From positions 1 to 64,000 of IMG/VR virus record IMGVR_UViG_3300047089_000152: a stretch of DNA of 64,000 nucleotides; one strand, given 5' to 3'. The translations under genes were made by a program, and so were the position numbers. Source of the stretch: a virus. Shown here piece after piece: positions 1 through 62,817 of the stretch. The notes under the pieces were generated by a model. That model made no database searches, had not been told where the DNA came from, and saw only the letters and a list, made by a program, of their open reading frames with translations. How positions within the stretch are numbered: the stretch's first letter is position 1; the number at the start of each line of letters is the position of its first letter.

Positions 1-110
1 GGTGTGGGTGGGTGGGTGGTGACGTGGGTAGGTGGGTGATGTGTGAGTGGGTGTGTGAGGTGAGTGGGTGTAGTGGGTAGGGTGGGCATGGAGTGTGGGG
101 TGGTGTAACG
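1..110 (+). repeat. G/T-rich low-complexity tract of GGGT/GTGG/GTGAG units at the window start
   Basis: Almost C-free run of ggtg/gggt units over the first ~110 nt; non-coding. Confidence 0.8.
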
Positions 111-12014: not shown

Positions 12015-12048
12015 ACCCGGATCCCGTTGTGTGGGGTCCGGGTTTTTT
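12015..12048 (+). terminator. Intrinsic terminator
   Basis: acccggatccc...gggtccgggt followed by a T run. Confidence 0.65.
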
Positions 12049-12069
12049 GCGCTCACCAGGAAGGTGAGC

Positions 12070-13722
12070 ATGTCGACAACAGAAAGGGCAGAAATGCCAG
12101 CGGATCGTAACAGTCGGGAACGGACACAGCTCGCGCAGATGTTCAAGAAGGAGATGTCCCGGGTCGCAGCCGAGCAGATCAAGGCCGCGTCCAGGCCGCC
12201 GACAGAGCAGGAGAAGCGCACCGCGGCGATCATGGCCAACCTGGACGAGCTGGGCGGCAAGATCGTCGGCGACGACAACATCGTCTTCGAGGGCACGCAG
12301 ATCAAGCTGCCCAGGGACATGGAGGGCAAACTCGACGAGGTCGTCGCGTTCATCGAGCAGTACGCCGAAAACCAGAACGCGCACTTCAACATGAAGCGCG
12401 CGTTCAACTACCGGCCACACGACGTGGCGGCTGCGTTCGGCCGCACGATGAAGAAGCTGTTCGGCGTGTCCGGGGTCGGGAAGGCGCAGTTCTCCATGTT
12501 CGGGATCATCCCACCGGAGTACATCAGCGTGAACTCCGGTCCCAACGGGGAAACCATCCAGGTCCCGTGGGGGAAGGTCGAGTTCTCGCTGCTCGAAGCC
12601 GAATTCTACATCGGTGCGACCAAGAGCGCAGAGTTCGGGACCGTCGGCGAGATCACCGTGGACGCACCGAAGAAGAACCGCAACAAGATCGACGGGTTCT
12701 TCAAGGTCCTCGCGGAGGAACTGCAACTCAGGTCGATTTACCGTGGCCACGCGATCACCGCGCACCCGAAGGAGCCTCAGTTCCTGGACCTGAACGCGAT
12801 CAACCCGGCGCGGGTCATCTACACCGAGGACGTGGAGACGCAGCTGCGGGTCAACCTGTGGGCGCCGCTCCAGTACTCGGAGACGCTGGCTGCGAGGAAT
12901 ATCCCGTTCAAGAGGGCCGTGCTGCTGTTCGGCCCGAACGGCACGGGTAAAACCCTCGCGGGTGGCCTGGCAGCGATGCTGTCCACGCAGAACGGGATCA
13001 CGTACATCCTGGTGCGTGCGCAGGACGACCCGATGGCCGCGCTGGAAACCGCGGCCATGTACGAACCGGCCGTGGTCATGGTCGAAGACATCGACACGGT
13101 CGCGTCTGCTAACCAGGACAGGAACCAGATCAAGCTGGTCCTGGACAGGCTGGACAACGTGGCCGCGAAGGGCCGCAAGATCATGGTCATCTTCACCACC
13201 AACGAAGTGGCCGACCTGGACCGGAACGTGCTCCGGCCCGGGCGTATCGACGCTGCGATCGAAGTCGGTGCCCTGGACCGTCCCGGGTACGAGCGGCTCG
13301 TCAAGGCGCTCATCGAACCGGAGTTCCTCTCCGACGACATCAACTACGACACGGTGTGCGAGGCGATGTACTACTACGACGAGGTCGCCAAGGAAAGGAA
13401 GGGGTTCCTGCCCGCGTTCGCTACCGAGGCGATCCAGCGGTCCATGCGGTACCGGATCATGGAGAACCATGGTGAGCCGGGTGTCATCACCACCGACAAC
13501 CTTGTGGACGCGTGCAAGGGCATGGCGTCGCACATCGTCCTGATGGACGCCGCGGAACGCGCCGACGACAAGAAGACGACGATGGAAGCCGCGTTCAGCG
13601 AGGCCATCGGCGCTGCCCTGTCGGACACGACAGGGACGTTCGCGGAGATCGAGGAAGGCGCAGGTATGCACTCCGTCTTCGAGAACGTGCAGGTGGAGTA
13701 CTCGACGGACGGCCATTCCTGA
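12070..13722 (+). CDS. AAA+ ATPase (classical AAA clade)
   Basis: Walker A GPNGTGKT, Walker B VMVEDID, sensor FTTN, arginine finger LRPGRID. Confidence 0.9.
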   Translation: MSTTERAEMPADRNSRERTQLAQMFKKEMSRVAAEQIKAASRPPTEQEKRTAAIMANLDELGGKIVGDDNIVFEGTQIKLPRDMEGKLDEVVAFIEQYAENQNAHFNMKRAFNYRPHDVAAAFGRTMKKLFGVSGVGKAQFSMFGIIPPEYISVNSGPNGETIQVPWGKVEFSLLEAEFYIGATKSAEFGTVGEITVDAPKKNRNKIDGFFKVLAEELQLRSIYRGHAITAHPKEPQFLDLNAINPARVIYTEDVETQLRVNLWAPLQYSETLAARNIPFKRAVLLFGPNGTGKTLAGGLAAMLSTQNGITYILVRAQDDPMAALETAAMYEPAVVMVEDIDTVASANQDRNQIKLVLDRLDNVAAKGRKIMVIFTTNEVADLDRNVLRPGRIDAAIEVGALDRPGYERLVKALIEPEFLSDDINYDTVCEAMYYYDEVAKERKGFLPAFATEAIQRSMRYRIMENHGEPGVITTDNLVDACKGMASHIVLMDAAERADDKKTTMEAAFSEAIGAALSDTTGTFAEIEEGAGMHSVFENVQVEYSTDGHS

Positions 13723-32364: not shown

Positions 32365-33396
32365 GTGAATATCCCCTCGACCGCCGAACTTCTACTCCGC
32401 GCCGACTGGGCGCGTCCCCGGTCTCGGCAGACAGCGCTGGGCATGTCCGACCTCGGTGGGTGTCGTCGCCGTGCCGGATATCAGCTGGCCGGTTACCAGC
32501 CGGAGAAACCAAGCGGATCAATTCAAGCTGTCATTGGCACGGCAGTGCATGATGCCGTGGATGCCGCGCTGAAAAAGATGCGCGAAGACGGGATCATTCC
32601 CGCCGACTCGGTCATCAACGAGGCCGTCTCGTTTGGTGGCGTCGTAGGGCACCCGGACCTTTATGTGGACGGGGTACTCAGGGATGTTAAAACTCTCGGG
32701 TATGGGGCGCAGCTGGCGAACGCGAAGCTGTACGGTCCGAAGCGGCAGCATCTGTGGCAAGTCATGACGTACGCCGCAGCCTGTATCCTCGCGGACCGGC
32801 CGGTGCGCACTGTCCAGATTGATTACCTTGTCAGGGATTCCGGTGAAAGCTGGATATGGGAAGGGCCGTTCGATTTCGGGCAGGTCCGCGAGGCGATGCA
32901 GTGGCTGGAATCGGTGCGGGAAACGCCGCTGGAATTCCTCGCCAGGGATTACGCTCCAGATTCGGCGACATGCAAAGGCTGCCCGTTCTTCAACGCCTGC
33001 TGGGACGGCCACGTGGTCGACCGTGACGAACGATCCGTCCTGCTAGTCACCGATGACGACGCGGTGCAGTGGGCGCTGCGACTGGAAGTAGCCCGGGAAC
33101 GGATCAAGACGGCGAAAGAAGAAGAAGCCCTGTCGAAAGGCGCGCTCGACGGGCTACGCCCTAACGACAAGGGAAAGGCGGAAATAAAATTGACTGGCTA
33201 CCCGAAGACTCTGCGCTGGACAGTCACTACGCGGAAGAATCTGGACACCGAAGTAATAAAGCAAGATTATGCGAGGGGCGGCATTATGCCGCCCCTCGCA
33301 TCGAGCGAAAGCGTCCGGTTGGAGTTGCTCGCGCCGCGGGATGAGGATTTATCCTGCCTATCCAATCCCGGCCGCTCCATGCCAAGCCATGCCTAG
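32365..33396 (+). CDS. Cas4-like / PD-(D/E)XK exonuclease
   Basis: SDLGGC, GTAVH, GHPD...DVKT, QVMTYA, CKGCPFFNAC (1+3 Cys). Confidence 0.85.
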   Translation: MNIPSTAELLLRADWARPRSRQTALGMSDLGGCRRRAGYQLAGYQPEKPSGSIQAVIGTAVHDAVDAALKKMREDGIIPADSVINEAVSFGGVVGHPDLYVDGVLRDVKTLGYGAQLANAKLYGPKRQHLWQVMTYAAACILADRPVRTVQIDYLVRDSGESWIWEGPFDFGQVREAMQWLESVRETPLEFLARDYAPDSATCKGCPFFNACWDGHVVDRDERSVLLVTDDDAVQWALRLEVARERIKTAKEEEALSKGALDGLRPNDKGKAEIKLTGYPKTLRWTVTTRKNLDTEVIKQDYARGGIMPPLASSESVRLELLAPRDEDLSCLSNPGRSMPSHA

Positions 33397-33413
33397 CCGC
33401 GCCTATCCCTTGC
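33350..33413 (-). ncRNA. Solo pentamer-code unit (putative guide RNA): 11 pentamers + GGCA + GGATA
   Basis: Minus strand gcaag ggata ggcgc ggcta ggcat ggctt ggcat ggagc ggccg ggatt ggata ggca ggata. Confidence 0.7.
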
Positions 33414-36363: not shown

Positions 36364-36684
36364 CTACTCCGTCACCACGATCTGAATACCCGCACACTCG
36401 TCAGTCAACAGGACTGGCCCGGCAGGCCACAAGGTGTGCGCTACGGGTATCTCGGCTGGGTCCTGGTAGCGGCCGGTCAGCCACCCTTGCTCCAGCGCCT
36501 CGGCGGGATGACCATGAACCCACCTGTGACACGCCGCGCACAACGTGACACGGTTGCAGGCGCGTTCGTCGCTGCCCGCCGACCTGAGCATTCTGTGGTG
36601 CACGTGCAGGTCGCGTGTGCTCCCGTCACGTGCGCACCGGTTCCCGTCGCGTTGGCGAATCTCCGCGTCGGGCACGTTCACCAC
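36364..36684 (-). CDS. HNH endonuclease
   Basis: RDGNRC...HVHHR..RS.G...N.VTLCAACH. Confidence 0.8.
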   Translation of the reverse strand: MVNVPDAEIRQRDGNRCARDGSTRDLHVHHRMLRSAGSDERACNRVTLCAACHRWVHGHPAEALEQGWLTGRYQDPAEIPVAHTLWPAGPVLLTDECAGIQIVVTE

Positions 36685-37136
36685 AGCGTAACCACCCCGT
36701 CGCAGGTTATCTGTATAATGGTATGTATGAGTACCAAAGAAATCTGTGTGCGGAAGGCACGCTATTCTTCCGTGCTCAGCTGCAAGCACTACGTTCTAGT
36801 CGGCCAGCCTATCTTCCGTGTCGAGGGACGGTGGATCTGCAAGGAATGCTTCTGGGTGTAACCGGCCCACAGCCCGGTGCCGGGCGTCATCTGACGCCCG
36901 GTCAACGATGACCGCCAGCTGGTCTACGACTTTTTGCTGCGCGATCCTGGCCCGTTTGGCTTTACGCCGCTTACCGATCTCCACCCACCGTTCCCGTTCC
37001 TGTTCACGTGACCTGTCCATCGAAAGGGTCGACCGGCACTGCCCGGTGTGACCGGCGGGCCGCCCGCACGCGGGCGGGTCCAGGAGTGCACCCCAGATTT
37101 TTTCGTAACGGATCATTTCCCGGCCGCACCGTGGTG

Positions 37137-42706: not shown

Positions 42707-43125
42707 TGAACGGTCAGACTGTCCCCCGGCCCCGGCCGTGCGCGTCGTGTCCGTACCGTAGAGACGTGCCGTCCGGTGTGTGGGCCGCGGAAGAATATGA
42801 CAAGCTACCCCGCTACGACGGGGACACGGGTGAGCAGGCGATGGCCGGGGCGTTCGGCGTGTTCATGTGTCACCAGGCTGACGGGCACCTGTGTTCAGGT
42901 TGGGTAGCCGCCCACGACATGCAGCACAACCTGGCGATACGCATGGCCCGCGACGTGGACATGCCAGCGGTCCTGTCGTACACCACGGACGTGTCGGTGT
43001 TTGGTTCCGGTGCGGAAGCCGCGGCGCACGGCAAGGCCGACATCGAGACCCCGGGGCCGGAAGCTATGCGGACCGTGGAGAAGATCACCGTGGTACGCGG
43101 TAGGCGCGGGAAAGGGAAAGGATGA
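42706..43125 (+). CDS. DUF6283-like Cys-rich protein
   Basis: PCASCPYRRDVPSGVWAAEEYDKLPRYDG...FMCHQ...CSGW. Confidence 0.7.
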   Translation: MNGQTVPRPRPCASCPYRRDVPSGVWAAEEYDKLPRYDGDTGEQAMAGAFGVFMCHQADGHLCSGWVAAHDMQHNLAIRMARDVDMPAVLSYTTDVSVFGSGAEAAAHGKADIETPGPEAMRTVEKITVVRGRRGKGKG

Positions 43126-43319
43126 GGCGGCCTAGGACGGAGCTGGAAGCGTACCGGTGTCCTGATTGCGGGTACACGGCGTTGATACAGCGGCTGGCTA
43201 GCCGGAGGAAGCTGACGGGGCATTTGAAGTGGTTGTGGTGTGTGCGGTGTGAGGTGCCCACGAATCATGTACTGGTCCCCTAGCCTGGACGGTTGTGGTA
43301 CGCTGTGGGTACAGCAAAC

Positions 43320-43453
43320 GGACCGGAAGGGAAAGGCTGGGCGCGGCAGGCATCGCAGCGGCCGGGATAGCAGCGGATCGGAGCGGCAGGACAGGATTGG
43401 CAGGGCACGGCTGGGCTAGGTGTGGCTGGGCTGGGAACGGAATGGATTGGACA
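43320..43453 (+). ncRNA. Upstream pentamer-code mini-array (13 pentamers + GGCA + 13 pentamers), putative guide RNA
   Basis: ggacc ggaag ggaaa ggctg...ggagc GGCA ggaca...ggatt ggaca; extended -10 TGG-TACGCT at 43296-43304. Confidence 0.75.
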
Positions 43454-43483
43454 CTAGCCGCACCGCATGCTACAGTAGAGGTA
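43448..43483 (+). promoter_or_regulatory. Promoter for the RAMP-like gene (TGGACA-N17-TACAGT-AGAGGTA)
   Basis: -35 overlaps the last pentamer of the mini-array. Confidence 0.6.
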
Positions 43484-43520
43484 TAGTCAACGGACGAGGG
43501 CATGAAAGGAACAACGCACC

Positions 43521-44186
43521 ATGCCACCACGCAAGACCACCACAGGCGGACCAGTCCAGCTCACCAGGCTGGCAGAAGAAGTCGCCCAAATCCACATCGC
43601 CGGGGCTACGCCACTTATTATTCATAAATGGTCGGAAAAGGCGCTCAACCAGATGCGGATCGCCCAGTCCGGGGCAATTAAGCCGCCCCGCGAACCCAAG
43701 AACGCCGAAGAAAACGCCCACGCGGCAACATACTGGGTCGACGTCGCCGAGACGATCCCCGGCATCCCCAGCGTCTCATTCAAGGCCGCCATGGTCGGAG
43801 CCTGCCGGTTCTTCGACGGCCTCCCCATGACGACAGCAAAATTGCTGTTCTTCGTCGACGGGGTCGTCAGCGAAGCCAAGGGCGACGCGCCAGCACGCGA
43901 CCTGCTCGTCCCGATTATCTCCGGCCCTGGGGAAATGCGGGAAGACACCCCGCGCAACGACAACGGAAACCCGGACCTCCGGTACAGGAATCAGTTCTTC
44001 CCGTGGAAAGCCGTACTCAACGTGCGGTTCATGCCCGCGAAGATCGCCCCCGAATCCGTCATCGCGCTAGCTGACGCCGCCGGTCGTGGCGGTGTCGGAG
44101 AATGGCGTCCATCCGCACCGAAAAGCGCGACTGGCACATACGGCCAGTTTCGTGTCATCACCCGGAAGGAATGGGAGTCGGCCTAA
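43521..44186 (+). CDS. Stand-alone RAMP/Cas7-like RNA-binding protein (Vipr-like effector)
   Basis: IHIAGATPLIIH (first RRM strand), PGIPSVSFKAAM (cf. Cas7/Csm3 PxIPGSSLKG), C-terminal G-loop GVGEWRP...GTYGQFRV; flanked by pentamer arrays. Confidence 0.75.
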   Translation: MPPRKTTTGGPVQLTRLAEEVAQIHIAGATPLIIHKWSEKALNQMRIAQSGAIKPPREPKNAEENAHAATYWVDVAETIPGIPSVSFKAAMVGACRFFDGLPMTTAKLLFFVDGVVSEAKGDAPARDLLVPIISGPGEMREDTPRNDNGNPDLRYRNQFFPWKAVLNVRFMPAKIAPESVIALADAAGRGGVGEWRPSAPKSATGTYGQFRVITRKEWESA

Positions 44187-44187
44187 A

Positions 44188-44745
44188 ATGGCGACCATCA
44201 CCGTCGAACAGCAGTGGGCGTTCAAATCGGGTGCGCGTGTCCCGGGTGGCGTCCACGCCGAGGATGTGGTGCGTGAGAAGGAACAGATGGAAGACCACCT
44301 GGGCCGCCTCGCCACCACGGAGGAAGCCGCGGAAATGGTCCTCCGCTGGCCTACCAAGTACAAGGCGCACCGGGCGTTCGCACCGGCAACCGAGAAAGAA
44401 GCACTCCACGAAGCAGTGGTACGCGGTGTTCGGAGCGCCTGGAGTTCCGTGATTCAGGTCGACGTCGAAATCACCGAGGTCACCAACCGGATTTCCGGTG
44501 ATATCGAGATCGCAACCAGGCGTGTCGACGCACCCGAAGTGAGATGGTTTCACGCCGTGCCAGCACGCGTCGGCGACACGCAACGAGTTTATGACTCGTT
44601 GCCGAATATCGCAGCCGATGCTGACAAGGAAGCGGCGCTGTCCGAAGATCTCGCCACGCAAGCACGCAACTTCTCCGCAAAAGTAGCCAGCGTCACTGGC
44701 GAGCTGGCGCGGTTGCACAAGTTGCGCAGCACCGCCGGAAATTAG
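44188..44745 (+). CDS. Accessory protein coupled to the RAMP-like gene
   Basis: Starts 1 nt after the RAMP stop; helical; directly precedes the array. Confidence 0.7.
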   Translation: MATITVEQQWAFKSGARVPGGVHAEDVVREKEQMEDHLGRLATTEEAAEMVLRWPTKYKAHRAFAPATEKEALHEAVVRGVRSAWSSVIQVDVEITEVTNRISGDIEIATRRVDAPEVRWFHAVPARVGDTQRVYDSLPNIAADADKEAALSEDLATQARNFSAKVASVTGELARLHKLRSTAGN

Positions 44746-44748
44746 ACC

Positions 44749-44786
44749 ACCAGGTTCCGGCCGGGGAAACTCGGCCGGAACCTGGT
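44749..44786 (+). other. Leader hairpin (16-bp stem, GAAA loop) immediately 5' of the main array
   Basis: accaggttccggccgg-ggaaac-tcggccggaacctggt. Confidence 0.8.
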
Positions 44787-44794
44787 CGGTAAGG

Positions 44795-46073
44795 GGAGTG
44801 GAGGGGCAGGGACTGTCGTGGCAAGGAACGGCAGGGCACGGAGTGGATTGGCAGGATAGGCTCGGCGCGGCCAGGCGGGGAGCGTTTCGGAGTGGCATGG
44901 ATTGGCTGGGACTGGCAGTATCGGATCGCAGTGGTCAGGGTAGGCAAGGCCCGGCCAGGCGGGGCTCGGTATGGCCTGCACTGGCGGGGAACGCAATGGA
45001 GTGGCAGGACCGGTGTGGAATGGCTGGGACGGGAACGGCGCGGTAGGGAATGGAGTGGCAGGAACGGTGGGGCCGGGCGCGGCGCGGCTAGGCTCGGCGC
45101 GGACGGGCATGGATTGGCTGGGCAGGACAGGATCGGAGAGCAGGGGGCTGGCGCGGCATGGCACGGAGAGGCAGGAGAGGAACGGTCGGGACAGGAGCGG
45201 CAAGGAGCGCACCGGCAGGCAGCGGCAGGGAATGGCATGGAACGGACTGGATTGGCAGGACAGGACCGGCATGGCCAGGAGGGGCATGTCCTGGAATGGA
45301 ATGGCAGGAATGGCTGGGTACGGCGGGGCCGGGCGAGCATTGGACAGGACCGGCAGTCGCGGAAGGGCTCGGCAGGGACCGGATTGCAGCGGCGAGGATG
45401 GGCTAGGCAGGAGCGGAACGGCAGGGCATGGCCTGGATCGGAGCGGCTGGGCAGGATAGGCATGGATCGGCCTGGGTAGGCAAGGAGGGGCTGGGACGGG
45501 ACCGGATTGGCAGGGCAGCAGTGGAGAGGCAAGCCGTGCAATGGCGGGGCGGGGCGTGGCATGGACTGGACCGGCAGGACTGGACTGGACTGGATTGGAG
45601 AGCAGGGCAGTGGCAGGGATCGTAGGGGTTCGGACGGGCAGGTTAGGCTTGGACGGGCTAGGCGTGGCATGGGCCGGCAAGGAACGGCTCGGAGCGGCAG
45701 GGATTGGCACGGCTCGGAGTGGCAGGACCGGACGGGTACGACGTGGCGTGGCTGGCATTGGCAAGGACTGGCAGGAGTGGATTGGCAGGGCCGGGCTTGG
45801 CATGGCGTGGCTGGGAATGGCGTGGCAGGACAGGTGGGGCTTGGCGGGCCGGGGATCGGCACGGATGGGCATGGCATGGCCCGGTAGGGCATGGCAGCAT
45901 TGGACTGGACCGGACCGGCAAGGCTTGGCTTGGCTGGGATCGGATGGGAACGGCAGGAGCGGAGCGGACTGTCGTGGCATGGCATGGCCTGGCGTGGCGC
46001 GGATCGGACGGGCAGGATAGGTCGGGCGTGGAATGGAACGGACGGGCTGGGCATGGAACGGCAGGATAGGAGT
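44795..46073 (+). ncRNA. Main pentamer-code array: 21 units of 8-17 G(G)N-NN pentamers, each closed by GGCA (putative multi-guide RNA precursor)
   Basis: 44795-46063 is exactly 237x5 + 21x4 nt; GGCA marks at 44850, 44914, 45003, 45057, 45121, 45170, 45254, 45303, 45352, 45406, 45450, 45514, 45573, 45637, 45721, 45770, 45824, 45893, 45952, 46011, 46060. Confidence 0.85.
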
Positions 46074-46130
46074 GACCCGCAGGGCTACTGTCGGGGTGGG
46101 CCGCGTGCCCCGGCAGAAGTTCGGCGGTGG

Positions 46131-46283
46131 ATGATCTTGTGCTCGTGCGGCCATCCTGCGGTCGAGCATGACCTGAACCGTTCGGAGACTAAGCGAACAG
46201 TTTGCCTGACCACCGAACGGACTACGAAATGTCCGTGCGTGCTATATTCACCAGACCTTCGTGATACACTAGAGGTACAATGA
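46131..46283 (+). CDS. Small Cys/His protein
   Basis: CSCGH...H...C...CPC. Confidence 0.45.
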   Translation: MILCSCGHPAVEHDLNRSETKRTVCLTTERTTKCPCVLYSPDLRDTLEVQ

Positions 46284-47149
46284 ACGAGACCATAGAACGA
46301 GAAGACCGCAGGGCCGTCACCGCGCTCACCTCCGGGGAAAACGCCACGAAGGTCACCGTCAAAACAAGCGACGGCAACTACGAAGAACGACAGCTAACCG
46401 TCCACGGGCTCGCACGGCTGATTCCCGTGATCGCACTGGGCGACATGGACCGGCTGATAGACGACGTGCGCGAACACGGCGTCCTCGAACCCCTGATCAT
46501 GTTCCAGGGACAAGTCCTTGACGGACGCAACCGGCTCGCCGTAGCTTCGGTCGTCGGCGTACCCGTGCAGCTCACCGAATTCGACGGAGACGAAGCCGCA
46601 GCCAGAAACTTCGTCTGGTCCGCGAACGCTGCGAGGCGGCACCTGTCCGTCCCCCAGATCGCGCTGGCCGCTGAACGGTTCGGTTTCGTCGACGCCGCCA
46701 AAGCCGAAGCAGGCCCCGACGACCCCAACCTGGATATCCGCTCGACGGTCGCACCATGGGCGCGAATCGCCGCGCGAAAGGTCGGTGCGATCACCCCGGC
46801 TACACTGGAACGGTTCCAGCAAGCCAGGATCCCCGAGGCACCCGACACGATGCGCCGGGTCGATTCCGGTGAGATCCGCCGGGTCGACGTCGCGGTCAAG
46901 GAAGCGGTCGCGGAGCGGACCGTGCTCACCGGCCGTCTCATCCAGGTTCCACCCCCGGTTGCGCGTACCGCGTGGGACCGGCTGGGCTGCGCGCGGGGTG
47001 ACGTTCTCGCCGCGGAACGCGCCATCCTGGCAGGGGACTGGGGTGGGATGGAAAGGGACCAGTTCGCTGTCCGCGCCCGTGAAATCCAGGGAGCCCTGAT
47101 CAGGATTCAGAATTTGTATCGTTATGGATCGGGCGGCAGGACCGGTTAG
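46280..47149 (+). CDS. ParB-like N-terminal domain protein
   Basis: DVREHGVLEPL...LDGRNRL...FVWSANAARRHLS. Confidence 0.8.
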   Translation: MNETIEREDRRAVTALTSGENATKVTVKTSDGNYEERQLTVHGLARLIPVIALGDMDRLIDDVREHGVLEPLIMFQGQVLDGRNRLAVASVVGVPVQLTEFDGDEAAARNFVWSANAARRHLSVPQIALAAERFGFVDAAKAEAGPDDPNLDIRSTVAPWARIAARKVGAITPATLERFQQARIPEAPDTMRRVDSGEIRRVDVAVKEAVAERTVLTGRLIQVPPPVARTAWDRLGCARGDVLAAERAILAGDWGGMERDQFAVRAREIQGALIRIQNLYRYGSGGRTG

Positions 47150-47207
47150 GACGGGCTAGGAATGGCTGGGCTGGGCATGGACTGGAATGGCAGGAATGGA
47201 ATGGCTA
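47135..47207 (+). ncRNA. Pentamer-code unit (GGCA + 10 pentamers + GGCA + 3) between the ParB-like gene and the next gene
   Basis: ggca ggacc ggtta ggacg ggcta ggaat ggctg ggctg ggcat ggact ggaat ggca ggaat ggaat ggcta. Confidence 0.7.
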
Positions 47208-47473
47208 AGCCGGATTTCGCCCACGGCGTGCAAGGCTACAACTGGCACAAGTGCCGGTGCGAACAGTGCCGGGCGGCTAACTCCGCCCGGTCCCGTACCT
47301 CCCGCGCTGCCCGCAAAGCACGCACCGCGGCGGGTGACCCCGCCGTCCCGCACGGGACCAGGGGCGGGTACACCAACTGGGCGTGCCGGTGCCTGCCATG
47401 CTCCCAGGCCAACAGCGAGGCGTGCCTGGAATACCGGAACGCCCACAGTAACCGTCAGGACATCGTGACCTGA
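47201..47473 (+). CDS. Small protein with two HG..gY...CRC..C repeats
   Basis: HGVQGYNWHKCRCEQC; HGTRGGYTNWACRCLPC. Confidence 0.7.
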   Translation: MAKPDFAHGVQGYNWHKCRCEQCRAANSARSRTSRAARKARTAAGDPAVPHGTRGGYTNWACRCLPCSQANSEACLEYRNAHSNRQDIVT

Positions 47474-47549
47474 CACCGTGGCCAGCCCCGTACCACTGGT
47501 GTAGTGTGACCGGGGTACGTTCAATGCTGGCGGAAACAGAAGGGCATAC

Positions 47550-48194
47550 ATGTTTACTTCTCTACGGCGCGGCCTCCTGGTCGCTGCTGCTACCGCTGTC
47601 GCGCTGGGTGGTTACGCCCTGAGTGCCAGCGCTGCTACACCTGGCTGTACCGCAGTGGCGGGGAACGCCTGCGGGTCCTGGAACACTGAGGTGCCGGGAC
47701 TGCCCGACCTCGACGTGCAAGGCGGCGCAGCGGTCAGCGGCAACAGCCTGATCGTCTTCACCCGCAGCAACCATGACAAGGCCGAGGATTTCATGGTCCA
47801 GATCGTCGCACCGGGAGCGACCTCTAAGTACACGGTTGGCGGCTTCACGGCCGGGGTCACCACTCCTCCCGCTGGCAGCGTGGCTATCCGCTACGCGCCC
47901 AATGGCGTGGACTCCGGGCTTTGCGTCTCGACGGTCAACCCGAACGGGCACGCTGCCGCGCAGCTTCGCGTGTGCAGCAATAACACCACCCAGTTCAACC
48001 CGTTCCAGACTTTCACCTCGCCTGTGGCGTCTGGTGACTTCACGGCGGTTCAGTTCACCGAGGTGATCCACGGCTACGTGATGACCGACCCCGCCAACAA
48101 CGGCTCGATTGGCGTCAAGGGCGCTCGCGTCCAGGTGATCTTCGCCAACAACCTTCATCACACCGGCCAGTTCTGGGGACAGAACGGCGCATGA
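47550..48194 (+). CDS. Secreted protein, ricin-B/beta-trefoil-like
   Basis: Signal peptide ASA; LCV...AQLRVC; Q.W. Confidence 0.65.
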   Translation: MFTSLRRGLLVAAATAVALGGYALSASAATPGCTAVAGNACGSWNTEVPGLPDLDVQGGAAVSGNSLIVFTRSNHDKAEDFMVQIVAPGATSKYTVGGFTAGVTTPPAGSVAIRYAPNGVDSGLCVSTVNPNGHAAAQLRVCSNNTTQFNPFQTFTSPVASGDFTAVQFTEVIHGYVMTDPANNGSIGVKGARVQVIFANNLHHTGQFWGQNGA

Positions 48195-62748: not shown

Positions 62749-62817
62749 GCATTGGAGGGGCATGGCATGGCACGGCCCGGAGTGCTGGGGTGGGGAACGG
62801 AATGGATGGGCAGGATA
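62749..62817 (+). ncRNA. Solo pentamer-code unit (12 pentamers + GGCA + GGATA), antisense within the tail operon
   Basis: gcatt ggagg ggcat ggcat ggcac ggccc ggagt gctgg ggtgg ggaac ggaat ggatg ggca ggata; TGG-TAGGAT -10 at 62733-62741. Confidence 0.75.

What the first reader, a model, noticed from the sequence alone, without database searches (positions are those of the whole stretch)
44795..44853. Decodable target predictions, with possible skipping of codon wobble positions
Seen: unit 1 NN string is gt gg ag ct gt aa ac ag ac gt tt. Inference: if each NN pairs with two target bases and skips the third, unit 1 specifies GTnGGnAGnCTnGTnAAnACnAGnACnGTnTT. A guide in codon phase would then tolerate synonymous third-position escape mutations. 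I could not locate targets by eye.
Basis: inference. Interest (0 to 1): 0.7.

Follow-up and report, generated by a model that had tools for sequence, protein, structure and literature searches.

The report
VIPR guide-RNA array in soil phage
The 59 bases are the first guide of a 21-guide array of a phage VIPR system, a CRISPR-like silencer first described in 2026.

Summary
Observation confirmed. Positions 44795-44853 are 11 pentamers GGM-NN plus a GGCA tetramer, with exactly the NN string reported.

They open a 1.28-kb array (44795-46069) of 240 pentamers and 21 GGCA tetramers with no other indel.

The array is a "staggered" vrRNA array of a VIPR system (bioRxiv 10.64898/2026.04.26.720920 and .720927).
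- The upstream gene 43521-44186 is a Vipr homolog. Its family profile hits PDB 36pp "SUSP1 Vipr" at E=2.5e-37, and its model has a Cas7-like fold.
- 78 of 119 viral loci found by the DNA pattern alone carry one Vipr gene.

In scans with skip 0-3 against shuffled controls, only skip 1 gave hits.
- Stand-alone guide S79 matches a radical-SAM gene 20/24 in this phage and 22/24 in six VIPR-less relatives.
- S47a matches the ParB-like gene 18/20.
- In both, the skipped bases are wobble positions.

No target was found for unit 1 or any other main-array guide.

Local peculiarities: GGA is as common as GGC, nine stand-alone guide genes are dispersed over the genome, and wobble A/T is enriched at the two own-genome sites.

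This scan has already found VIPR on other DNA. Verdict: a new member of a known kind.

The parts
44795..44853 (+). The finding: vrRNA unit M01, 11 GGM-NN pentamers plus the GGCA of its terminal GGCAG
   Evidence: NN string as reported
44795..46069 (+). Main staggered vrRNA array: 21 units of 8-17 pentamers. Each ends in GGCAG, whose last G is the first G of the next unit.
   Evidence: architecture as in fig. S18 legend of 10.64898/2026.04.26.720920
43521..44186 (+). vipr gene (221 aa), a single-RRM RAMP / Cas7-like protein
   Evidence: Profile A1 against PDB 36pp 'SUSP1 Vipr protein', E=2.5e-37. AF2 model pLDDT 92. Top Foldseek hits are Csm3, Cmr4 and type VII Cas7. PHROG 4652.
44188..44745 (+). 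Candidate vap (accessory) gene, 185 aa, starting 1 nt after the vipr stop; function unknown
   Evidence: No Pfam or PHROG hit. Only 3 homologs among 5.8 billion clusters. AF2 pLDDT 49.
44748..44790 (.). 15-bp G+C-rich hairpin between the vap candidate and the array
   Evidence: role (terminator or processing/5' end) not determined
43296..43448 (+). Upstream mini-array: promoter-like TGGTACGCT, then units S43a (43320-43384) and S43b (43389-43448) joined by GGCA
47135..47193 (+). Stand-alone unit S47a (10 pentamers, 47139-47188) between the ParB-like gene and the next gene
47099..47127 (-). Site matching S47a by the 1-nt-skip rule, 18/20, inside the 3' end of the ParB-like ORF 46280-47149. Skipped bases are codon position 3.
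   Evidence: 0 of 1000 shuffles reach 18. It is also the gene-wide maximum of wobble A/T.
62754..62813 (+). Stand-alone vrRNA gene S62 (11 pentamers + GGCAG) followed by a hairpin
33354..33408 (-). Stand-alone vrRNA gene S33 on the minus strand (10 pentamers + GGCAG)

Best explanation
Positions 44795-44853 are the first guide unit of a staggered vrRNA array of a VIPR (Viral Interference Programmable Repeat) system. The system sits on a 104-kb uncultivated soil phage, probably of an actinobacterium.

From the published work on the Escherichia phage SUSP1 and Pseudomonas fulva prophage systems: one Vipr protomer (here the product of 43521-44186) binds each pentamer. It buries the GG plus the third base and presents the two variable bases. 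The filament then pairs these dinucleotides with double-stranded DNA whose matching dinucleotides are separated by one skipped base. Binding silences transcription.

Inferred here by homology and by this genome's own matches: the same code applies, and the skipped base falls on codon wobble positions, so synonymous escape does not help the target.

Unit 1 would therefore read GTnGGnAGnCTnGTnAAnACnAGnACnGTnTT on either strand of a target that is not in the collections I could scan, most likely a rival phage, satellite or prophage of the same host.
For: - Family membership. The profile of 46 homologs hits the solved SUSP1 Vipr at E=2.5e-37. The model has a Cas7 fold. Equivalents of SUSP1 H17, R138, W144, W178 and R179 are conserved in alignment A1.
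- Association. A scan for (GGNNN)x10 alone gave at least 119 viral loci, and 78 of them carry exactly one Vipr homolog next to the array, on the same strand.
- Architecture. The array has 240 pentamers and 21 GGCA|G junctions, which equals the published 1-nt-overlap staggered arrays. Units hold 8-17 pentamers, against the published 9-16.
- Code in this genome. Only skip 1 gives matches beyond shuffles.
- S79 matches the B12-radical-SAM gene 20/24 in this genome. It matches 22/24 at the homologous site of six relatives whose wobble letters differ. The skipped bases are codon position 3 in all.
- S47a matches 18/20, with the skipped bases at codon position 3.
- The mechanism itself comes from the papers read.
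Against: - No target was found for unit 1 or for any of the 21 main-array units. I looked in the phage's own genome, 400 kb of related phages, 1.1 Mb of VIPR loci and the exact-pattern scans.
- Expression and processing of the array are unshown, because no RNA run holds this phage.
- The third pentamer base is A in 45% of units here, whereas the SUSP1 pocket is reported to exclude purines. This Vipr must therefore differ in that pocket, and the code was never tested for such a variant.
- The adjacent 185-aa gene resembles no described vap.
Confidence: 0.85

Rival explanations
1. The array is real VIPR-type DNA, but the main array no longer works as a set of guides. It could be a decaying relic, or an RNA sponge or decoy for Vipr proteins of rival phages.
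For: No target was found for any of the 21 units. Solo vrRNAs that hijack another element's Vipr are described in 10.64898/2026.10.15.759431.
Against: Over 1.28 kb there is no indel other than the regular GGCA junctions, and GG is kept in about 90% of pentamers. This argues for purifying selection. An intact vipr with its own promoter-like site lies directly upstream. My target search covered only exact patterns for a few units.
Confidence: 0.07
2. This GGM-type system reads targets by a rule other than the 1-nt skip, for example a different gap or use of the third base.
For: Position 3 is A or C here instead of the pyrimidine of the studied systems. The papers mention other consensus types whose rule was not tested.
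Against: Within this genome and its relatives, only skip 1 yields matches beyond shuffles, at 18/20, 20/24 and 22/24. Skips 0, 2 and 3 give none.
Confidence: 0.05
3. The G-rich 5-nt rhythm acts through nucleic-acid structure or another protein, not as guides. Options are G-quadruplex or R-loop DNA, a TRAP-like ring wrapping GGN triplets, or a proline-rich protein read from the minus strand (ORFs 44693-46054 and 44742-46169).
For: GC skew is +0.4 over the array. GG-N3 spacing could in principle form two-tier quadruplexes. Two long minus-strand ORFs are open.
Against: The tight, strand-specific linkage to a Vipr homolog in 78 of 119 loci and the solved Vipr-vrRNA structures explain the rhythm fully. 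Minus-strand stops can arise only from the rare GGCTA, GGTTA or GGTCA units, so open frames are expected. Both frames give the same P-x-x-x-x pattern, which is a nucleotide-level artefact. Rfam finds nothing.
Confidence: 0.02

Closest known systems
VIPR systems with staggered vrRNA arrays (bioRxiv 10.64898/2026.04.26.720920, fig. S18; structures in 10.64898/2026.04.26.720927)
   Same: Phage-borne. A single about 20-kDa RAMP protein (Vipr) sits next to same-strand arrays of GG-x-NN pentamers. Units hold about 9-16 repeats. Neighbouring vrRNAs overlap by 1 nt (here GGCAG/GGANN). A small accessory gene follows vipr. Matches obey the 1-nt skip with the skip at the wobble position.
   Different: The third base is A 45% / C 47% (GGM), not GGY. 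GGA is concentrated in the first two and last two pentamers of a unit. There is no structured 3' tail between units. There are 21 guides in one array plus nine stand-alone guide genes scattered over 60 kb, several with their own promoter-like site and hairpin. The accessory gene resembles no described vap. Two guides match the phage's own genes at 83-90%, whereas the papers found no self-hit at or above 80%.
Type II VIPR of Escherichia phage SUSP1 (PDB 36pp)
   Same: Homologous Vipr, with the G-loop GxGD/EWRP and the thumb arginine conserved. The guide logic is the same.
   Different: SUSP1 has about 100-nt vrRNAs with a 3' pseudoknot tail and strict GGY. Pairwise sequence similarity to this Vipr is undetectable by phmmer and is seen only through the family profile.
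Vipr homologs of cluster F mycobacteriophages (e.g. Saal gp51, Cheoctovirus)
   Same: These are the closest named relatives of this Vipr, at 47% identity. Saal has a staggered GGC-NN array with GGCA junctions just upstream of gp51.
   Different: Saal's array is about 250 nt, almost pure GGC, and lies in the immunity region of a temperate 58-kb phage. Its downstream gene gp52 is unrelated to the 185-aa gene here.
Class 1 CRISPR Cas7 backbones (Csm3/Cmr4, type VII Cas7)
   Same: RRM core, glycine-rich loop and thumb. One protomer binds per fixed number of guide bases, with periodic base flipping.
   Different: There is no repeat-spacer array and no sign of adaptation genes in the locus. The period is 5 on the guide against 3 on the target, instead of 6 against 6.

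Membership tests
VIPR system | Vipr protein: minimal single-RRM RAMP with G-loop and thumb, homologous to characterised Vipr | tested here: met
   Profile hit to SUSP1 Vipr (36pp) at E=2.5e-37 over 180 positions. AF2 pLDDT 92, and all top Foldseek hits are Cas7-type RAMPs.
VIPR system | vrRNA region of tandem pentamers with conserved GGY (or a related consensus) alternating with hypervariable NN, flanking vipr on the same strand | tested here: met
   240 pentamers downstream and 25 upstream of vipr, all on the + strand. The consensus is GGM rather than GGY, which counts as a 'related consensus'.
VIPR system | 9-16 repeats per vrRNA | tested here: met
   Units of 8-17 pentamers plus the terminal GGCAG.
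VIPR system | Staggered array: adjacent vrRNAs overlap by 1 nt | tested here: met
   All 21 register shifts are GGCA followed by G, so unit spacing is 5n+4. Actual RNA ends were not observed.
VIPR system | Targets obey the 1-nt skip rule, with the skip usually at the codon wobble position | tested here: met
   S79 scores 22/24 in six relatives and 20/24 in its own genome. S47a scores 18/20. Only skip 1 exceeds shuffles, and the skip is codon position 3. This is met for 2 of 29 guides; no target is known for the rest, including unit 1.
VIPR system | vrRNAs are expressed, processed and bound by Vipr | not testable with these tools
   No RNA run holds the phage. Only low-depth soil DNA contigs were found.
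VIPR system | vap accessory gene next to vipr | tested here: inconclusive
   A 185-aa ORF starts 1 nt after the vipr stop. It has no Pfam or PHROG hit, only 3 homologs, and a low-confidence model.
CRISPR-Cas | Repeat-spacer array with contiguous spacers, and cas1/cas2 or further cas genes | tested here: not met
   The repeats are 5-nt units, not 25-40-nt repeats with spacers. The neighbouring genes are DUF6283, an HTH protein and a ParB-like protein. A genome-wide cas search was not run.
TRAP-like RNA-binding ring site | 11 or so (G/U)AG triplets with 2-3-nt spacers bound by a TRAP-fold oligomer | tested here: not met
   The spacing is similar, but the linked protein is a RAMP, not a TRAP fold.

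The most novel reading that the evidence does not exclude
Some stand-alone guides of this phage act on the phage's own genes or on their alleles in close kin.

S79 lies beside a B12-radical-SAM gene. It matches that gene 22/24 in six VIPR-less relatives and 20/24 in its own genome. The own allele carries a Phe-to-Tyr change at a read position. Its skipped (wobble) bases are recoded to A/T in 9 of 11 codons, which is the gene-wide maximum and the top 0.13% genome-wide.

The S47a site in the ParB-like gene is likewise its gene's wobble-A/T maximum.

This suggests one of two things: a weapon-plus-linked-antidote arrangement against kin, or VIPR-based self-regulation with targets tuned for easy DNA opening. 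If the second holds, the 'skipped' base is not neutral.
Probability: 0.3. Interest if true: 0.6.

Novelty: new member of a known kind. Interest (0 to 1): 0.4.

Why it matters
The finding shows that a tool-less reading of raw sequence recovered the noncontiguous VIPR code. That code is real, but it has been in print since April 2026, so the decoding idea itself is not new.

This instance adds four things:
- A large staggered array (21 guides) in a high-G+C soil phage.
- A pentamer consensus in which adenine is as common as cytosine at the position that the SUSP1 structure says excludes purines.
- Guide genes dispersed over the genome as separate promoter-to-hairpin units.
- Two guides whose best matches lie in the phage's own genes, at sites with unusual A/T wobble bases.

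The last point, if confirmed, bears on two open questions. One is how VIPR phages tell self from kin. The other is whether the skipped base influences target opening.

Tried and rejected
- Nucleic-acid-structure and ring-protein readings (quadruplex or R-loop, TRAP-like site, Rho site on the antisense strand, primase or Chi sites) were my first ideas. I dropped them once the linked protein proved to be a Vipr.
- Minus-strand ORFs are judged artefacts of CC periodicity.
- Rfam gave no family for 43000-47600.
- Megablast of 42-49 kb against phage genomes gave no match.
- Close Vipr relatives in GTDB genomes: none.
- Full-length skip-1 patterns gave no hit. I tried M01 in IMG/VR (64) and JGI metagenomes (83), S79 (69), S47a (70) and M10 (80) in IMG/VR, and M10 in GTDB genomes (84).
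- The M01 9-dinucleotide anchor gave 11 metagenome hits. This is about the number expected by chance, the flanks do not match, and six hits are two repeated sequences. Rfam finds nothing on them (87).
- The S43a 9-dinucleotide anchor gave 2 chance-like hits.
- Earlier readers' peptide decodings (M10 as helicase motif V, S43a as a Xer-like helix) could not be confirmed.
- Cross-targeting among 349 units and 1.1 Mb of VIPR loci showed no excess at any skip.
- The NN composition fits codon positions 1-2 better than other phases, but hardly better than a uniform model, so it carries little weight.
- The ParB homolog of relative G002 does not carry the S47a site.
- The vap fold has pLDDT 49, so it was not searched. 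The protein atlas gave nothing.
- No RNA holder is listed. Laid contigs show only low-depth identical fragments and other phages' arrays.
No mismatch-tolerant scan of actinobacterial genomes was therefore possible.

Full report
**What is there**

Positions 44795-44853 read GGAGT GGAGG GGCAG GGACT GTCGT GGCAA GGAAC GGCAG GGCAC GGAGT GGATT GGCA.

The unit opens a 1.28-kb tract (44795-46069). A dynamic-programming segmentation splits it into 240 pentamers beginning G-G and 20-21 tetramers, with no other length change. Every tetramer can be read as GGCA followed by G. Successive units therefore share one G (…GGCAG/GGANN…), and unit spacing is 5n+4.

The autocorrelation of G peaks at lag 5 (0.57) and shifts by -1 every 54-59 nt. 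GC skew is about +0.4. No + strand frame is open. Two long minus-strand ORFs are expected by-products, because minus-strand stops can arise only from the rare GGCTA, GGTTA or GGTCA units.

**The genome**

The window is the first 64 kb of a 104,150-bp single-contig virus record with 63.6% G+C. Low-depth identical fragments occur in three soil or rhizosphere metagenomes.

Smaller tracts of the same kind lie at:
- 43320-43448 (two units);
- 47139-47188;
- 62754-62813;
- 33354-33408 on the minus strand;
- genome positions 79506, 86576 and 90454, outside the window.

Several have a promoter-like TGGTAC(A/G)CT just upstream and a hairpin just downstream. That motif occurs seven times in the genome, always on the + strand.

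**How it was identified**

They span 39-71% G+C. Most hold high-complexity arrays with the same grammar, including GGCA junctions.

Clustering all ORFs of these loci showed one family shared by most of them. An iterated HMM found exactly one member in 78 of 119 loci, next to the array and on its strand. The window's 221-aa gene 43521-44186 belongs to this family.

A profile of 46 members (A1) hits PDB 36pp, "SUSP1 Vipr protein", at E=2.5e-37. The AlphaFold model (pLDDT 92) matches only Cas7-type RAMPs such as Csm3, Cmr4/6, type VII Cas7 and gRAMP.

This led to three 2026 preprints on Viral Interference Programmable Repeat systems. They report the following:
- vrRNAs are 9-16 pentamers of GGY/NN.
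- One Vipr protomer binds per pentamer.
- NN pairs with target DNA whose dinucleotides are separated by one skipped base.
- The skipped base usually lies on the codon wobble position.
- Targets are rival phages, satellites and prophages.
- Some systems have "staggered arrays" in which neighbouring vrRNAs overlap by 1 nt.

The tract here is such a staggered array.

**Test of the code on this genome**

I defined 28 units, later 29. I scanned the whole genome on both strands with 0, 1, 2 or 3 skipped bases, against guides with shuffled dinucleotide order.

The 21 main-array units show nothing beyond chance at any skip, which agrees with guides aimed elsewhere. Only skip 1 gave matches that no shuffle reached:
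- **S47a** scores 18/20 at 47099-47127. The match is antisense, lies in the last codons of the ParB-like ORF 46280-47149, and is 11 nt upstream of the guide.
- **S79** scores 20/24 at genome 80226-80260. The match is antisense and lies inside a B12-binding radical-SAM gene (Pfam) that ends 60 nt from the guide.

In both cases the skipped bases are third codon positions.

Six related IMG/VR phages carry this radical-SAM gene at 75-78% identity. At the homologous site S79 matches 22/24 in all six. The skipped bases are again codon position 3, although the wobble letters differ from this phage's at nearly every codon. The chance expectation is about 1e-5 in 400 kb.

Those relatives have no Vipr homolog in the four records of 61-139 kb, one of which is 97% complete. 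They also have no arrays near the gene. The syntenic ParB region of one relative lacks vipr, the array and S47a.

Enrichment exists, only at gap 1, and in codon phase.

**Unit 1 and the main array**

No target was found. The evidence is:
- No significant hit in the own genome, in 400 kb of relatives or in 1.1 Mb of VIPR loci.
- The full unit-1 pattern has no exact match in IMG/VR or in the JGI metagenome contigs.
- A 9-dinucleotide anchor gave 11 metagenome hits. This is about the chance number, none matches the flanking dinucleotides, and six are copies of two sequences.
- Unit M10 gave no exact match in IMG/VR or GTDB genomes.
- S43a was read as a Xer-like helix. Its anchor gave two chance-like hits.

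The tools allowed only exact patterns on the large collections, and only for a few units. This is therefore weak negative evidence.

**How this instance differs from the described systems**

*Third base.* The third pentamer base is C in 47% and A in 45% of units. In the other 115 loci it is C 68%, T 22% and A 6%. This is the highest A share among genuine arrays sampled. GGA dominates the first two and last two pentamers of a unit, and GGC the middle.

*The binding pocket.* The SUSP1 structure paper says the pocket for this base excludes purines. In the profile alignment the equivalents of SUSP1 E71, M72 and C173 are V, S and a gap here, while H17, R138, W178 and R179 are kept and D177 is E. 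Relatives with GGY arrays also have small residues at those positions, so I draw no conclusion from this.

*Guide layout.* Guides occur both as one 21-unit array and as nine dispersed promoter-to-hairpin genes.

*Accessory gene.* The 185-aa gene after vipr has three homologs in 5.8 billion clusters, no family and no confident model.

*Self-matches.* The two own-genome sites exceed the 80% threshold at which the papers found no self-targeting.

*Wobble A/T.* Both sites are the maxima of wobble A/T content in their genes. The radical-SAM site has 9 of 11, which ranks in the top 0.13% of 20,447 windows genome-wide. The ParB-like site has 6 of 10.

I see two readings of the self-matches:
- A guide aimed at the kin allele, placed beside an altered own allele. 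The Phe-to-Tyr change removes one read base. Earlier notes of this scan describe the same pattern on other phages.
- Self-regulation, with targets tuned for easy DNA opening.

I cannot decide between them.

**Closest named relatives**

The closest named relatives of this Vipr are the gp51-type proteins of cluster F mycobacteriophages, at 47% identity. Phage Saal has a roughly 250-nt GGC-NN staggered array directly upstream of gp51, partly inside the annotated start of that gene.

**Verdict**

The interpretation matches a mechanism that is already published and is supported here by in-genome evidence. The specific target of unit 1 is unknown.

This is a new member of a known, very recently described kind, with a few local peculiarities worth a bench test. 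This scan has already reported VIPR loci on other DNA.

Noticed in passing
L120:1927-1961 (genome 80226-80260), guide at L120:1207-1266 (genome 79506-79565): Stand-alone guide S79 sits 60 nt beyond the end of a B12-radical-SAM gene. By the 1-nt-skip rule it matches that gene 20/24 in its own genome and 22/24 in six VIPR-less relatives. The own site has 9 of 11 A/T wobble bases, against a mean of 2.3 genome-wide, and a Phe-to-Tyr change.
   Followed up: yes
window 47099-47127: The S47a-matching site is the wobble-A/T maximum of the ParB-like gene and lies 11 nt upstream of the guide. The one relative with this gene has a different C-terminus and no guide there.
   Followed up: yes
window 39129, 40158, 43296; genome 79478, 90430, 94251, 100703: The motif TGGTAC(A/G)CT, which looks like an extended -10 element, occurs seven times, all on the + strand. 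Three copies sit just upstream of stand-alone vrRNA genes. The others precede ORFs that start a few bases downstream.
   Followed up: partly
window 1-100: The contig starts with about 100 nt of G/T-rich irregular repeats (GGTGTGGGTGGGTGGG…). This may be a genome end, a terminal repeat or an assembly edge.
   Followed up: no
L159:2597-2845 (Mycobacterium phage Saal, NC_023580.1 about 36587-36835): A cluster F mycobacteriophage carries a staggered GGC-NN vrRNA array upstream of gp51, a Vipr homolog annotated as hypothetical. It lies between the antirepressor region and the excisionase. The annotated start of gene 51 lies inside the array.
   Followed up: partly
window 12031-13722: A 563-aa AAA-ATPase-like ORF has its nearest phage homologs in Mycobacteroides abscessus prophages and Gordonia phages (34-37% identity). 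This is the only weak hint at the host range.
   Followed up: no
L009:8252-8680 and L118:3276-5245: In low-G+C viral contigs the vrRNAs are separate modules of about 105 nt. Each has roughly 14 pentamers plus an A/T-rich spacer with promoter-like hexamers, instead of being staggered.
   Followed up: no
L150, L155, L156, L157 around the M01-anchor hit: Four metagenome contigs share a conserved non-coding-looking element with a CTCGTGAA(T/A)ACGAG hairpin. Rfam does not recognise it. It is probably unrelated to this finding.
   Followed up: partly
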